Translations under genes and position numbers: made by a program | The notes under the pieces: model-generated | The model's database searches: none | Told to the model about the DNA's origin: nothing | What the model saw: the letters and a program-made list of their open reading frames with translations, nothing else | In this document: piece by piece, positions 1,900 through 5,600 of the stretch | Layout of the letters: every line of letters begins with the position of its first letter | Position numbering within the stretch: position 1 is the first letter of the stretch | Assembly (NCBI RefSeq): GCF_009914755.1 | Contig: NC_060936.1 | Source of the DNA: the human T2T-CHM13v2.0 reference genome, Homo sapiens | DNA: 64,000 bases | Direction: 5' to 3' (one strand)

Positions 1900-2562
1900 C
1901 AACCTTCCTCCTGGAGGAGGAGGGAAAGAGTTCGGTGGGGGAGGGGCTTTCTGCCTCTCTGAGAGCCTTGAAGCTGTCCGTGTCCTGGGCCCCATGACCT
2001 CTGGGGCCTTGGCTTCCCCAGCTGGCAGAGGATTGGGCCTTCCCTAGGGCCCCCCCTTTCTCCCTCCCACCCGCAGGCCCATCCATCTCTCTCTCTCTCT
2101 CTTGCACACACTCTTGCCTCTCTCAGGCATTTGTTGTGCAGTTCCTCTTTGTCTGCTGGGCACGAGGGGCAACAGCATCTGCCTTTCCCTCCCTGTGCAC
2201 ACACCCACCACCCACCCCCTTCACTGTCTTGGAAAAGGGATGCTGTAGCCTAGCATCTCCCCCACTATATACACATATACATTCTCTCCAGCCCCCTCCC
2301 CAAGCACATCCAAGCGTGCTCTCCCCTCTCCTTCTCTCCCTCTCTCTCTCTCTCTCTCTCACACACACACACACACACACACACACTCAACACACATACA
2401 CCCTGGGCTGAGCTGCTCTTGCTGGCTGCAGCCGTGGGCCTCTGCTCACCGTGCCGCTGCTGCTGCCTGCGAAATGACGGCGGTTCCCCTCACTTCCAGG
2501 AATCCACGCTTCCTGGAAGGTGAGTGGCTGGGCTCACCCCTGCCTGCCACTGAGACGCAGAC
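1900..2562 (+). promoter_or_regulatory. IKZF4: IKZF4 proximal promoter / 5'UTR, with STAT GAS sites
   Basis: Pyrimidine-rich region, CpG cluster ~2430-2670, GAS motifs TTCCAGGAA 2494-2502 and TTCCTGGAA 2510-2518. Exact TSS not determinable. Confidence 0.7.
2341..2386. repeat. Compound microsatellite (TC)10(AC)13
   Basis: Read directly. Confidence 0.97.
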
Positions 2563-2649
2563 ATGCATACACCACCCGCACTCCCTCGCCGTTTCCAAGG
2601 CGGCGGCCGCGTTCGCACCCCAGGGTCTCACCGGCAAGGGAAGGATAAT
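2563..2649 (+). CDS. IKZF4: IKZF4 coding exon 1 ([10 protein letters not shown]...QGKDN)
   Basis: ATG at 2563, 29 codons, donor AAT|GTAAGT at 2650. Confidence 0.93.
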
Positions 2650-5600
2650 GTAAGTTCAGGCAGAAGGCGGCTAGTGGAGGGAGGAAGGGGGGTGCTGGGG
2701 CTAGGGAGCCAATTCAGTAACTACTCCCAAGCCTGAGGAGATGGAGAGGATGGGGGCTGTGTGTGTGTGTGTGTGTGTGTGTGTGTGTGTGTGTGTGTGT
2801 AGCGGGGGAGGGGGCGTTCCTCCTTATACTTGCGGAGGATGGGAAAGGGTGTTTGGTGTTGCTAAGCAAAGACGGCGACTTGGACAGTGGGAGCCTATGG
2901 TGACATCTTGATTAGGCCTTGGGGATAGAGGTAGAGCTGCCTGGGGTGAAATGCCGAGACAGGCCTGGGTGGGAAGGGGTAGTGGAGAAAATCAAGGTAA
3001 GGAAGAGGAGCCTTGGCAAGCAGATGCCTCAGCCTGGAACAGAGATCTGAGGGGCCTCAGCTTCCTCCCCACAAAAGAGCTGAGGATGGGCGTCTTTCTT
3101 TGCTCTTGTACCCACTATTCCCTGCTAGCAGGCTAGGATCCTGCCACCCTGGAGCCCGTGGTCAAGAAAGGGAAAGCAGTTATGATGAGGTGCCTTGCAG
3201 AGAAGTGTGGAGGTTCTCCATGTTCTCCAAGCTCATGGCTATTCCCTAGATGTAGCCACTATTTAAAGGTCTCAAGGAAAGGCAGCAGGAGTGGAGGCTA
3301 GCCTCCTTTAACATATGAAACACCTTTAGCTTGTGGCCTGTTTCCCAGTTCCTTTCTCTCCCTCCTGCTTTTCAGCCTTTACCTACCTCCCAGTTCCTCT
3401 AATGTGAACCTCATGATTTGGCTTTGCCCTCTGGGGGTTCAGCCAATCTATGATGACTTTGAGCAAGAAAATTTCTCAGAGACCTAAGAGCAGCCTTAAT
3501 TCTTGGCTTTGACAGTCTGGGATTTCTTGGGAGTCCCAGACTTTTGAGATTCCCTCACTGGGGTTTCTGGGGCTGAGAGAGGAACTGTTAAACTTCCTAA
3601 ATCTTACTCTAGTCCCCTCACCCCTGAGCTAGAATTCAAAATCCTTGGTGCCCAAGAAAGCCTTTCTGACTCCTGAAACAGATTCATTATACATATATTT
3701 TAGCCCCATGAAAGTAGACTTGATCCTGTTTTTCCCCTTACCTTAATCTTAGGGAGGGCAACAGCATCAAAGAGCCTCTTGAATTACTGGTGTGACTCCT
3801 GCTTCTCTTCCTGTTTCTGGGCCTTAATTGGGAAAGCCACAAAGGATGCTTTTCCCTCAGTGTTTCTTTTTTTTTTTTTTTTTTTTGAGACGGAGTCTCG
3901 CTCTGTCGCCCAGGCTGGAGTGCAGTGGCGCGATCTCGGCTCACTGCAAGCTCCGCCTCCCAGGTTCACGCCATTCTCCTGCCTCAGCCTCCCGAGTAGC
4001 TGGGACTACAGGCGCCCGCTACCATGCCCGGATAATTTTTTGTATTTTTAGTAGAGACGGGGTTTCACCGTGTTAGCCAGGATGGTCTCGATCTCCTGAC
4101 CTCGTGATCCGCCCGCCTCGGCCTCCCAAAGTGCTGGGATTACAGGCGTGAGCCACCGCGCCCGGCCGCCCTCAGTGTTTCTAAGTGTACTTTTAAATAT
4201 ATTTTCCTCCACATAGCAAGTCGCTGGCCTCAAGAGGCAGCCTCAGCCGAATAAGCTGGGACCAGTGATGGATTTCCAACAAGTTCACTCATCCTTTTAG
4301 GGTCAAGGCCTCAAAGCCAAGTGCCCTGTTCTTCCCTGATAGTAACATCAAGTGATTTAGGGCAATTCAGCACTAATAAAGGGAATAAGAAGATAACATT
4401 TTCAGCCCTTTTAACCCTAGTAAACCCTACACTTAGTTGAAAGGATATATTTAAAACTGGCTCTGAGTCTACAAGTCTCAACCCACAATCCTGAGATGCT
4501 CACTTCATGATATGTGTGTGGTTCTGATTTCGGGCAACATTTTTAGGTAACCATGGCTCACCTAAAAAGCCCCAGCTGGGAAAACTCAGATTCAAGCCAT
4601 AAGGCTTTTTCTATAGATAGTGAACATTTTTCCTCAGGCTTTGACGGGATAGAATGGGGAAAATGGGACTTTAGGAGAGGATATGAACGGGAAATGGTCC
4701 CAAAGTCCTGAGTGGTTGTTTTCTTCCCACTGACCAAAGCTGGAGAGGGATCCCTCAGGAGGGTGTGTTCCGGATTTCTTGCCTCAGGCCCAAGACTCCA
4801 ACCATTTTATAATGGAATCTTTATTTTGTGAAAGTAAGTATGTGCATAGCTGGGCAATTGGGTAAAGTACTAATAGGTGGACTTCAGGGATGAATTTTAG
4901 GCTTCCTCTCTCTTTCTTGCACTCTCCCTTGCTTTCTCTTTCTCTCTTCCATATTTAGGCCTGTGTGCACACATCCATGCATGTTCATGTTAGCAGATAA
5001 TGTAGAAGGCTACCAGTATGTTTATCCCAATAGGTATGTTCTCTTTATATGTATCTACATATGTGTTGTGTCTCTGTGTGTGTTTATCTACATGTATTTT
5101 TATTTCACCTATATATTTGTGTAGAAGATTGTGGGGAGGAGGGATTTTTTTAAAAAAGACATTCATATCTTCCTTTAGGTATGTTATCTGATTTTGAAAA
5201 ACATTATGAAAGCCTCAAAAAGCATTTTTACAAAGCAATTTATCAGAAAATTAAAACAAATATACTGAGAATAAGTTGATCACTTAACTGTCAATGAATA
5301 TCAAATAGTAAACACGTGATTGGAATCAGATCAGTAGGAGACTTTCTAGAGTAATCAAATTTTTGCTGAATTTAGAAAGTCTAAGAGGCCCAATTCTTCC
5401 CTACTAAGATTGTGACCACCAATTGGCTGTGTAGGTGCTGGTTAAGGACATGGACGCTTACTGTCTATGATCCCAGTTCCACACTAGCAGCTATGTAACC
5501 TTAGACAACTAACATAACCTCTTTTGTACCTCAGTTGCCTCATCTGAAAAAATCATGATATTAGCACCTACTTCATATAGTTGTTGTGAGGATTAAATGA

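What the first reader, a model, noticed from the sequence alone, without database searches (positions are those of the whole stretch)
2474..4814. IKZF4 upstream ATG with two splice-dependent fates, and an overlapping uORF ending in a TAATG stop/start at Met54
Seen: an ATG at 2474 lies 89 nt upstream of, and out of frame with, the main ATG (2563). (a) If the consensus donor GAAG|GTGAGT at 2520 is joined to exon 3 (both phase 1), it yields an in-frame 540-aa Eos starting MTAVPLTSRNPRFLEG. (b) If the normal donor (2650) and exon 2 are used, the same ATG opens a stop-free 82-codon uORF over the main start. It ends at TAA 4810-4812, which shares its last A with the Met54 ATG (4812-4814, ATAATGG, a better Kozak context than the other two). 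Established: overlapping uORFs suppress downstream starts, and TAATG overlaps occur in termination-reinitiation. Inference: splice choice plus translational coupling could switch between 585-, 540- and 532-aa Eos. The 540-aa splice form may already be annotated; I do not know the TAATG coupling to be described.
Basis: partly seen in the sequence, partly recalled or inferred. Interest (0 to 1): 0.8.

Follow-up and report, generated by a model that had tools for sequence, protein, structure and literature searches.

The report
IKZF4 upstream ATG: ordinary overlapping uORF
The upstream ATG in the human IKZF4 (Eos) leader is real and sits in an old, splice-signal-dense segment, but it looks like an alternative first coding exon that doubles as an ordinary inhibitory upstream reading frame, and the TAATG stop/start overlap at Met54 is no more than chance would give.

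Summary
Every coordinate in the finding checks out. These are ATG 2474, the main ATG 2563, the consensus donor at 2519/2520, an in-frame 540-aa product via 2519->6123, and an 82-codon +1-frame uORF via 2649->4740 whose TAA (4810-4812) overlaps the Met54 ATG.

The arrangement is not statistically unusual. Given the Eos protein sequence, the +1 frame stays open over codons 1-52 with P 0.55-0.78. A stop overlapping Met54 has P 0.12-0.33.

No support for termination-reinitiation was found. The uORF is long at 82 codons, there is no UGGGA core, and there is no unusual structure upstream of TAATG.

The ATG is more likely the start of an old alternative 5' coding exon. RefSeq already has an exon ending at 2519, and a cobra Eos protein starts with 13 of 16 identical residues. 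That conservation may also reflect splice signals.

New here: a -22 kcal/mol hairpin pairs the 3' splice site at 2499 with the 5' splice site at 2520, 11 nt after the ATG.

No paper links IKZF4 to uORFs. Translation, TSS use and conservation across mammals remain untested. Interest is modest.

The parts
2240..2248 (+). Minimal uORF (ATG + 1 codon + TAG), the only other ATG in the MANE leader
2474..2476 (+). Upstream ATG, +1 frame relative to the main start; context G at -3, A at +4
2474..2519 (+). 15 codons + 1 nt (MTAVPLTSRNPRFLE-G) of the alternative first coding exon. 13 of 16 residues are identical to the N-terminus of cobra Eos P0085
   Evidence: the exon end at 2519 is in the hub's RefSeq table (exon 1970-2519)
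2487..2527 (+). RNA hairpin. It has a perfect 10-bp stem, CTTCCAGGAA (2493-2502) / TTCCTGGAAG (2510-2519), a 7-nt loop, and extends to 15 bp with G2520 bulged. It pairs the 3' splice site at 2499/2500 with the 5' splice site at 2519/2520
   Evidence: -22.3 kcal/mol, z -4.06, 0 of 200 shuffles as good; the only inverted repeat in 2100-2700; 6 comparable hairpins in 64 kb
2500..2649 (+). Annotated internal exon of other transcripts. It is homologous to the bird/turtle coding cassette exon (GICSSWKVSG...DADMHTQPGLQ...). In human that single ORF is broken across two frames
   Evidence: hub table
2520..2525 (+). Consensus 5' splice site GTGAGT (AAG|GTGAGT)
2551..2553 (+). In-frame TGA four codons upstream of the main ATG. 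Birds and turtles read through the homologous place (..DADMHTQP)
2563..2565 (+). Annotated start of 585-aa Eos (G at -3, C at +4)
2646..2648 (+). TAA that ends the 62-codon ORF opened by the ancestral MDIEDC ATG when its exon is joined to exon 2500-2649
2650..2655 (+). MANE 5' splice site (AAT|GTAAGT), 8 of 9 consensus positions
4740..4833 (+). Exon 2 (94 nt). It appears only in eutherian Eos proteins among those retrieved (6 of 120), all keeping Ile53-Met54
4810..4814 (+). TAATG: the uORF stop TAA (4810-4812) overlapping the Met54 ATG (4812-4814; A at -3, G at +4)
4829..4831 (+). TGA ending the 45-codon uORF of the 2519->4740 splice form
6123..6227 (+). Exon 3 (phase 1), acceptor for the 540-aa form. 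A tandem acceptor 4 nt downstream (6127) would put the uORF frame in frame (582 aa), as in the rabbit model P0012

Best explanation
ATG 2474 is the start codon of an old alternative first coding exon of IKZF4. That exon ends at the consensus donor 2519/2520, and joined to exon 3 it gives a 540-aa Eos.

In the MANE transcript the donor is read through. It may be masked by a stable hairpin that pairs it with the nearby 3' splice site. The same ATG then becomes an ordinary out-of-frame overlapping uORF.

Ribosomes that start at 2474 cannot make the 585-aa protein. They terminate in exon 2, upstream of several exon junctions, so they should lower output by blocking the main start and probably by NMD. 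The 585-aa protein would be made by ribosomes that scan past ATG 2474.

The TAATG overlap is a by-product of an ATA (Ile53) codon in front of Met54, not a coupling device. The 532-aa form would come from leaky scanning or from alternative 5' exons.

Shown: the sequence anatomy, the chance levels, the cobra homologue and the hairpin stability. Inferred: use of ATG 2474 by ribosomes, NMD, and masking of the donor.
For: - Coordinates, frames and products are verified.
- The exon end at 2519 and exon 2500-2649 are in the hub's RefSeq table.
- The donor matches 9 of 9 consensus positions, against 8 of 9 for the MANE donor.
- Cobra Eos P0085 starts MTAVSLTSRNLFFLEG|SGDSS, 13 of 16 identical to the human uATG peptide. 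Two turtle models keep ..N(L/F)(L/F)FLEG|.
- The rabbit model P0012 carries the uORF-frame peptide at 94% identity.
- Nulls: openness of the +1 frame has P 0.55-0.78, the TAATG overlap P 0.12-0.33, and both together P 0.09-0.18.
- There is no TGGGA in the mRNA from 2108 through exon 3. The 95 nt ending at TAATG fold no better than shuffles (z +0.37).
- Review passages state that out-of-frame overlapping uORFs act as negative regulators bypassed by leaky scanning, and that reinitiation efficiency drops with uORF length, with an eIF3 half-length of about 12 codons.
- Viral UAAUG reinitiation needs a TURBS with 18S complementarity 34-73 nt upstream of the stop.
- Hairpin: -22.3 kcal/mol, z -4.06, 0 of 200 shuffles as good. 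It is one of 6 such hairpins in 64 kb and sits exactly on the two annotated splice sites.
- The uORF stop lies 21 nt before the exon 2/3 junction and 126 nt before the exon 3/4 junction (coordinates). The 50-55-nt NMD rule is recalled general knowledge.
Against: - I saw no direct evidence that ribosomes start at 2474.
- IKZF4 has no entry in the supplement tables of PMC10032668, which list the GENCODE Ribo-seq ORFs (0 occurrences in 5 files, while IKZF5 has 2 entries and 'uoORF' occurs 688 times). This is weak evidence, because IKZF4 is poorly expressed in the cell types usually profiled and stored files may be cut.
- The human-cobra peptide identity may reflect conserved splice signals and not coding. 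A TGAC branch-point-like motif overlaps the ATG, followed by a pyrimidine tract, AG, a 20-nt exon piece and GTGAGT.
- In turtle P0026/P0074 the position of the ATG is not Met.
- The frame relation between the uATG block and the MHT block differs between human, bird and turtle.
- TSS usage is unknown. Whether a human 540-aa protein is annotated could not be checked. The 2519->6123 junction was not seen in any data here.
Confidence: 0.55

Rival explanations
1. Termination-reinitiation coupling. Ribosomes that translate the 82-codon uORF stop at UAA 4810-4812 and restart on the overlapping Met54 AUG. The uATG would then switch output from 585-aa to 532-aa Eos.
For: - The TAATG overlap exists, and Met54 has the best -3/+4 context.
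- No ATG in any frame lies between 2563 and 4812.
- Ile53-Met54 is kept in all 6 retrieved eutherian proteins that contain exon 2.
- The review notes that reinitiation after 5'-proximal stops does occur in cellular mRNAs, and that start and stop within about 20 nt favours it.
Against: - The overlap is expected in 12-33% of synonymous recodings.
- 82 codons is far beyond the length at which initiation factors are retained.
- There is no UGGGA core and no unusual structure upstream.
- Conservation of Ile-Met is explained by protein coding alone. The codon (ATA or not) in other mammals could not be seen.
- Leaky scanning would give the same product.
Confidence: 0.07
2. The uATG is translationally irrelevant. 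The segment 2474-2527 is conserved because it is a block of splice signals (branch point, pyrimidine tract, AG, 20-nt piece, GTGAGT) plus a hairpin. The ATG and its open frame are by-products. The 43S mostly scans past it, or most transcripts lack it.
For: - TGAC at 2475-2478 lies 21-24 nt upstream of the AG at 2498-2499, and the stretch between is pyrimidine-rich.
- The same nucleotides are read in three different frames in bird, turtle/snake and human models. This argues for nucleotide-level constraint and against peptide-level constraint.
- The turtle lacks Met at the homologous place.
- IKZF4 is absent from the Ribo-seq ORF tables searched.
- The rabbit-versus-human differences in the uORF peptide include a change that is silent in the main frame (His2 CAT/CAC, inferred).
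Against: - The ATG has a purine at -3.
- A -22 kcal/mol hairpin starts 11 nt after it. By recalled work of Kozak (1990), a hairpin at about that distance increases recognition of an AUG.
- The MANE 5' end at 2108 puts the ATG inside the reference mRNA (hub table).
- The cobra model uses the ATG as its start.
Confidence: 0.3
3. The 82-aa uORF product, or a 582-aa protein carrying its first 58 residues via the tandem acceptor at 6127, is itself functional.
For: - The rabbit model P0012 and turtle models read this frame into Eos through an acceptor 4 nt downstream.
- The human join 2649->6127 is open for 582 aa.
Against: - Only 1 protein in the database carries the peptide (1 hit among 23 candidates).
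- These are automatic gene models.
- No exon starting at 6127 is in the hub's human table.
- The frame is open by composition.
Confidence: 0.03

Closest known systems
Inhibitory overlapping uORFs (for example ATF4 uORF2; general class described in the review PMC10275272, passages read)
   Same: An out-of-frame AUG in the leader opens an ORF that runs over the main start. The main ORF is reached only by ribosomes that skip the uAUG.
   Different: Here the same AUG is also the start of an annotated-type alternative coding exon. The uORF crosses an exon junction and ends exactly on an internal in-frame AUG. No stress-regulated short uORF precedes it; the only other uATG opens 2 codons.
TURBS-dependent termination-reinitiation of caliciviruses and influenza B BM2 (UAAUG/AUGA; PMC2793014 and PMC10275272, passages read)
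   Same: The stop and start share nucleotides (UAAUG), and the two ORFs are out of frame.
   Different: The defining upstream element complementary to 18S rRNA was not found (recalled UGGGA core absent), and there is no notable structure. The context is a capped cellular 5' region where leaky scanning gives the same product.
uORF-controlled choice of N-terminal isoforms of transcription factors (C/EBP alpha/beta, and Fli-1 with overlapping uORFs; recalled, not checked in any call)
   Same: One mRNA, several in-frame starts, and an upstream ORF that decides which is used. The product is a transcription factor with or without an N-terminal extension.
   Different: Those uORFs are short and reinitiation-competent. 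This one has 82 codons and overlaps the first start by 53 codons.
5' splice sites masked by a stem-loop (MAPT exon 10, SMN2 exon 7 TSL2; recalled, not checked in any call)
   Same: A stable local hairpin includes the 5' splice site and could limit U1 access, which would favour a downstream donor.
   Different: Here the other arm of the stem is a 3' splice site only 20 nt upstream, so a single stem would hide two alternative sites. No mutational or covariation evidence exists.
Sauropsid Eos cassette exon (bird models such as P0121: MDIEDCNGRSYISG|ICSSWKVSG...DADMHTQPGLQRCFQGVGCDNTPGYLQQG|SGDSS)
   Same: Homologous DNA. The human frames at 2499-2540 and 2554-2640 align to the two halves.
   Different: In birds it is one open internal coding exon spliced straight to exon 3. 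In human the two halves are in different frames, a TGA precedes Met1, a 94-nt exon 2 is added, and transcription can start just upstream.

Membership tests
Overlapping upstream ORF (uoORF) | AUG inside the 5' leader of a curated transcript | tested here: met
   ATG 2474 lies in MANE exon 1 (2108-2649, hub table). It is one of only 2 ATGs in the 455-nt leader.
Overlapping upstream ORF (uoORF) | Out of frame with the main CDS, with its stop downstream of the main AUG | tested here: met
   +1 frame, 82 codons, stop at 4810-4812, which is 53 codons into the CDS.
Overlapping upstream ORF (uoORF) | Evidence of translation (footprints, initiation-site peaks, peptides) | not testable with these tools
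   IKZF4 has 0 occurrences in the 5 supplement files of PMC10032668 that list the GENCODE Ribo-seq ORFs.
Overlapping upstream ORF (uoORF) | Conservation of the uAUG | tested here: inconclusive
   It is present in cobra P0085 and is not Met in turtle P0026/P0074. No mammalian DNA was obtainable (one search found nothing).
TURBS-type termination-reinitiation | Stop and restart codons overlapping or within about 20 nt | tested here: met
   TAATG at 4810-4814.
TURBS-type termination-reinitiation | Upstream Motif 1 complementary to 18S rRNA (helix 26 / ES9), 34-73 nt before the stop | tested here: not met
   There is no TGGGA anywhere in the mRNA from 2108 through exon 3. The pentamer is recalled. 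A full complementarity scan against 18S rRNA was not done.
TURBS-type termination-reinitiation | Local RNA structure presenting the motif | tested here: not met
   The 95 nt ending at TAATG fold at -27.2 kcal/mol against a shuffle mean of -28.5 (z +0.37).
TURBS-type termination-reinitiation | Downstream product depends on translation and termination of the upstream ORF | not testable with these tools
   This needs reporters.
Short-uORF reinitiation that selects isoforms (C/EBP type) | Short uORF, so that initiation factors are retained | tested here: not met
   The uORF has 82 codons. The review passage gives an eIF3 half-length of about 12 codons and falling efficiency with length.
Alternative first coding exon / alternative 5' splice site isoform | Usable, annotated donor | tested here: met
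   AAG|GTGAGT at 2519/2520. Exon 1970-2519 is in the hub table.
Alternative first coding exon / alternative 5' splice site isoform | Frame compatible with the downstream coding exon | tested here: met
   Both are phase 1, giving a single 540-aa ORF.
Alternative first coding exon / alternative 5' splice site isoform | Homologous N-terminus in orthologues | tested here: met
   Cobra P0085 is 13 of 16 identical and is joined to SGDSS. It was the only representative with this start among 94 candidates.
Alternative first coding exon / alternative 5' splice site isoform | Junction 2519->6123 observed in RNA, or the 540-aa protein annotated in human | not testable with these tools
   The hub table gives exon ends but not their connections. 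The database is clustered at 90% identity, which hides N-terminal variants.
Splice-site-masking hairpin | Stable stem that includes the splice site | tested here: met
   -22.3 kcal/mol, z -4.06, 0 of 200 shuffles as good. The arms are 2493-2502 and 2510-2519.
Splice-site-masking hairpin | Covariation or conservation of pairing | tested here: inconclusive
   Only peptide-level hints exist. Cobra keeps the arm-encoded TSRN and FLEG and changes the loop-encoded PR to LF. Turtle has HIWN at the 5' arm.
Splice-site-masking hairpin | Effect on splice choice | not testable with these tools
   This needs minigenes with disrupting and compensatory mutations.

The most novel reading that the evidence does not exclude
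The 41-nt hairpin that pairs the 3' splice site at 2499 with the consensus 5' splice site at 2520 is a conserved RNA switch.

When it is open, AUG 2474 starts a 540-aa Eos, or a 45-codon uORF over Met54.

When it is closed, the MANE mRNA is made. In that mRNA the hairpin sits 11 nt behind AUG 2474 and forces initiation there. Little 585-aa Eos would then be made, and terminating ribosomes would be delivered onto the Met54 AUG at UAAUG.

Splice choice and translation would together set the ratio of three Eos N-termini in Treg and neural cells.
Probability: 0.06. Interest if true: 0.65.

Novelty: new member of a known kind. Interest (0 to 1): 0.3.

Why it matters
Eos (IKZF4) is a cofactor of FOXP3 in regulatory T cells and lies in a GWAS region for autoimmune disease. 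If the reference mRNA carries an efficiently used out-of-frame upstream AUG, protein output and the N-terminal form of Eos cannot be read from mRNA levels. Leader variants that touch ATG 2474, the hairpin or the donor at 2520 could then change Eos dose.

As it stands this is an unvalidated but ordinary overlapping uORF, and the proposed stop/start coupling has no support. The practical gain is a set of clean, cheap tests, and a warning that the 585-aa start is preceded by a strong conserved upstream AUG in both transcript classes (ATG 2474, and the MDIEDC ATG upstream of the window).

Tried and rejected
**Literature**
- IKZF4 + uORF: 0 papers.
- IKZF4 + 'upstream open reading frame': 0 papers.
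- IKZF4 + 'ribosome profiling': 1 paper, seen in the listing only, a review on regulatory RNAs.
- IKZF4 + 'translation initiation': 9 papers. I read one passage, from PMC8632918. It says IKZF4 mRNA is polysome-enriched in TGF-beta/RAD001-treated T cells and says nothing on uORFs.
- IKZF4 + alternative splicing + isoform + exon: 18 papers, 15 listed. Passages of PMC3185410 and PMC8689071 say nothing on Eos isoforms.
- Eos/Ikaros isoform searches, with passages of PMC3424578 and PMC3145782, gave nothing on Eos N-termini.
- The original Eos cloning papers (Honma 1999, Perdomo 2000; recalled) were not found in the library.

**Ribo-seq catalogues**
- Only PMC10032668 could be searched.
Larger ncORF sets may therefore hold this ORF.

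**DNA from other mammals**
- With the 58-aa uORF peptide it matched 600 patterns but no relative.
- Codon-level conservation (uATG, the ATA of Ile53, hairpin covariation) therefore could not be tested.

**Other**
- My recalled idea that Met54 corresponds to the ancestral Ikaros-family start was rejected. The ancestral Eos start is MDIEDCNGRSY.., seen in 47 of 120 retrieved proteins directly joined to exon 3. It is intact in human about 800 nt upstream of the window.
- The mouse 541-aa form (P0008, MASAQALPAIRSLLQG|) is not a homologue of the uATG peptide. It matches the intron just upstream of exon 3 (human ..[14 protein letters not shown]).

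
Full report
**1. Observation**

I read the three stretches named in the finding and recomputed everything from the window.
- ATG 2474-2476 lies 89 nt upstream of the annotated start at 2563, in the +1 frame relative to it.
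- The donor at 2519/2520 is CCTGGAAG|GTGAGTGG, which matches all nine consensus positions of MAG|GTRAGT. The MANE donor at 2649/2650 is AAT|GTAAGT, matching eight of nine.
- The annotated CDS translates to 585 aa, with Met at residues 1 and 54.
- Joining 2474-2519 to exon 3 (6123) gives one open 540-aa product starting MTAVPLTSRNPRFLEG.
- Reading from 2474 through the MANE junction 2649->4740 gives 82 codons and then TAA at 4810-4812. Its last A is the first base of the Met54 ATG.
- By the -3/+4 rule, Met54 (A, G) has a better context than the uATG (G, A) or the main start (G, C).
- The MANE leader from 2108 contains only one other ATG, a two-codon ORF at 2240.

**2. Is it more than chance?**

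It is not.
- I kept the first 54 residues of Eos fixed and resampled synonymous codons. The +1 frame stays open over codons 1-52 in 55% (uniform codons) to 78% (codon usage of the rest of IKZF4 plus RPS26) of 20,000 samples.
- A stop that overlaps the Met54 ATG appears in 33% and 12% respectively, and both together in 18% and 9%.
- The 29 leader codons behind the uATG stay open in 50% of shuffles.
- The +1 frame of the whole IKZF4 CDS has only 8 stops in 586 codons. An 82-codon open stretch is therefore typical for this gene.
- No ATG in the 156 nt between the two in-frame starts has P 0.33. Two ATGs in the leader against a shuffle mean of 4.4 has P 0.11.

The TAATG is simply what an ATA Ile codon in front of ATG looks like in the +1 frame.

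**3. What the segment is: evidence from other species**

A search of the protein database with the last exon returned 2,024 Eos and Ikaros-family proteins at E <= 1e-20 among 4,466 candidates. The best 120 were listed, and I inspected and classified their N-termini.

- *Ancestral start.* In 47 of 120 the protein starts, or continues, with MDIEDCNGRSY.SG joined directly to exon 3 ([10 protein letters not shown]). This covers sharks, coelacanth, amphibians, reptiles, birds, echidna, a marsupial and elephant, so it is the ancestral start. The exon is intact in human about 800 nt upstream of the window: ATG at G000:C12:55985203, context AAAATGG, phase-1 donor. Joined to exon 3 it gives 538 aa.
- *The exon-1 coding part is old.* 24 bird models carry ..ICSSWKVSGCVRPASDADMHTQPGLQRCFQGVGCDNTPGYLQQG|SGDSS as an internal cassette exon.
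- *Frames differ between lineages.* Aligned to the three human frames, the bird exon maps to human 2499-2540 in one frame and to 2554-2640 in another. A turtle model (P0074..NLFFLEGEWLSSPYHCHADMHTQP..) maps to 2510-2539 in the uATG frame and to 2545-2643 in the main frame. The same DNA is one ORF in sauropsids and is split across frames in human, where a TGA at 2551 closes the main frame four codons before Met1.
- *Exon 2 is eutherian in this sample.* It was seen only in eutherians: 5 proteins plus the low-quality sloth model P0019, 6 of 120 in all. All 6 keep Ile53-Met54.
- *The uATG peptide has a homologue.* A cobra protein (P0085) starts MTAVSLTSRNLFFLEG|SGDSS, 13 of 16 identical to the human uATG peptide. 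Two turtle models keep ..FLEG| at the same junction but have no Met at the homologous place. A targeted search with the first 40 residues of P0085 found no other representative with that start among 94 candidates. Clustering at 90% identity hides N-terminal variants, so that count is a floor.
- *The uORF-frame peptide.* The exon-1 part, 58 aa, occurs in one database protein, a rabbit model (P0012, 94% identity; 1 hit among 23 candidates). There it is read into Eos through a tandem acceptor 4 nt inside exon 3. The same join is open in human for 582 aa, but no such exon is in the hub's table.
- *The mouse form is not homologous.* The mouse 541-aa form starts in the intron just before exon 3.

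**4.

The 20 nt between the annotated 3' splice site (..CAG|G at 2499/2500, exon 2500-2649) and the annotated 5' splice site (GAAG|GT at 2519/2520) are closed by a perfect 10-bp inverted repeat, CTTCCAGGAA / TTCCTGGAAG.
- The stem extends to 15 bp with G2520 bulged. It folds at -22.3 kcal/mol, z -4.06, and none of 200 shuffles folds as well.
- Only 6 non-repetitive hairpins of this quality exist in the 64-kb window. This one lies exactly on two alternative splice sites, and it begins 11 nt after the uATG codon.
- Two inferences follow; neither is shown. In pre-mRNA the stem would hide the consensus donor at 2520, which would explain why the reference transcript reads on to the weaker donor at 2650. 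In the MANE mRNA a hairpin at about this distance behind an AUG should increase its recognition (Kozak 1990, recalled).
- The cobra peptide keeps the residues encoded by the arms (TSRN, FLEG) and changes those encoded by the loop (PR to LF). That is only a hint.

**5. Mechanism**

*Best reading (0.55).*
- ATG 2474 belongs to an old alternative first coding exon.
- When donor 2520 is used and joined to exon 3, the ATG starts a 540-aa Eos.
In that form the 585-aa start is spliced out and Met54 is the first in-frame start.
- When the donor is read through (MANE), the ATG opens the 82-codon overlapping uORF.
- By the general rule quoted in the review I read, such a uORF is a negative regulator, and the main start is reached by leaky scanning.
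- The uORF stop lies upstream of the exon 3/4 junction by 126 nt. Its translation should therefore also expose the mRNA to NMD (recalled 50-55-nt rule).
- Transcripts from the far upstream promoter have the same problem in another frame. The MDIEDC ATG joined to exon 2500-2649 opens a 62-codon ORF that runs over ATG 2563 and stops at TAA 2646, 73 nt of mRNA before Met54. The 585-aa start is thus preceded by a conserved, well-placed upstream AUG in both transcript classes.

*The coupling idea (0.07).*
- Long-ORF reinitiation at UAAUG is documented for caliciviruses and influenza B. It depends on an upstream element complementary to 18S rRNA placed 34-73 nt before the stop.
- The recalled UGGGA core is absent from the whole 5' part of the mRNA. 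The 95 nt ending at TAATG are not unusually structured (z +0.37).
- Reinitiation after uORFs falls with length, with an eIF3 half-length of about 12 codons. Here there are 82.
- It is not excluded, since the review notes reinitiation after 5'-proximal stops in cellular mRNAs. Leaky scanning would give the same 532-aa product.

*The second rival (0.3).* The ATG may be a passenger of conserved splice signals. TGAC at 2475-2478 is a plausible branch point for the AG at 2498-2499, and a pyrimidine tract follows it. This fits the fact that the same nucleotides are read in different frames in different lineages.

**6. What is in print**

- No paper in the library holds IKZF4 together with uORF or 'upstream open reading frame'.
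- Searches on ribosome profiling, translation initiation, splicing and isoforms gave nothing on Eos N-termini.
- The tables of the GENCODE Ribo-seq ORF set, as reproduced in the supplements of PMC10032668, list IKZF5 uORFs but no IKZF4 entry.
- I could not see the connectivity of the 23 RefSeq transcripts. Whether a human 540-aa protein is already annotated therefore stays open; the exon end at 2519 is annotated.

**7. Limits**

- No DNA from other mammals was obtainable. Conservation of the uATG in mammals, the ATA codon of Ile53 and covariation in the hairpin are untested.
- TSS usage, junction counts and ribosome occupancy cannot be assessed with these tools.

**8. Verdict**

- The splice-dependent double use of the ATG is plausible and probably partly annotated.
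- The overlapping uORF is an ordinary member of a common class.
- The TAATG coupling is unsupported and within chance.
- The splice-site hairpin and the deep history of the segment are the more interesting additions, but they rest on sequence alone.

Interest 0.3. Novelty: new member of a known kind.

Noticed in passing
window 2487-2527: A stable hairpin (-22.3 kcal/mol, z -4.06) whose arms are the annotated 3' splice site at 2499/2500 and the exon end of the annotated consensus 5' splice site at 2519/2520. It starts 11 nt after the uATG. It may be a splice-site mask and an aid to AUG recognition.
   Followed up: partly
G000:C12:55985203-55985242 (window -797 to -758; locus L005 1501-1540): An intact human copy of the ancestral Eos start exon (MDIEDCNGRSYVSG, context AAAATGG, phase-1 donor). 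Joined to exon 3 it gives 538 aa. Joined to exon 2500-2649 it opens a 62-codon ORF over ATG 2563 that stops at TAA 2646.
   Followed up: partly
window 2499-2649: The human exon-1 coding region is homologous to a sauropsid internal cassette exon that is one ORF in birds and turtles. In human the two halves lie in different frames and a TGA (2551) precedes Met1. All three frames are open between 2554 and 2645.
   Followed up: partly
window 4740-4833: Exon 2 (94 nt, including Met54) was seen only in eutherian Eos proteins among the 120 retrieved. Bird and turtle models splice the exon-1 homologue straight to exon 3. It may be a eutherian addition.
   Followed up: no
window 6119-6127: A tandem acceptor, CAAG|GTAG|C. 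Rabbit and turtle models use the site 4 nt downstream, which in human would put the uATG frame in frame with Eos (582 aa).
   Followed up: partly
window 2330-2395 and 2757-2800: Long (CT)n(CA)n and (GT)n dinucleotide repeats flank exon 1. The first lies inside the MANE 5' leader, about 80 nt upstream of the uATG, and its length may be polymorphic.
   Followed up: no
window 5981-6122: The intron end before exon 3 reads ..LPSCSLLQG in frame with exon 3. It matches the N-terminus of the mouse 541-aa model ([21 protein letters not shown]), so that mouse form starts in the retained intron and not at a uATG homologue.
   Followed up: partly
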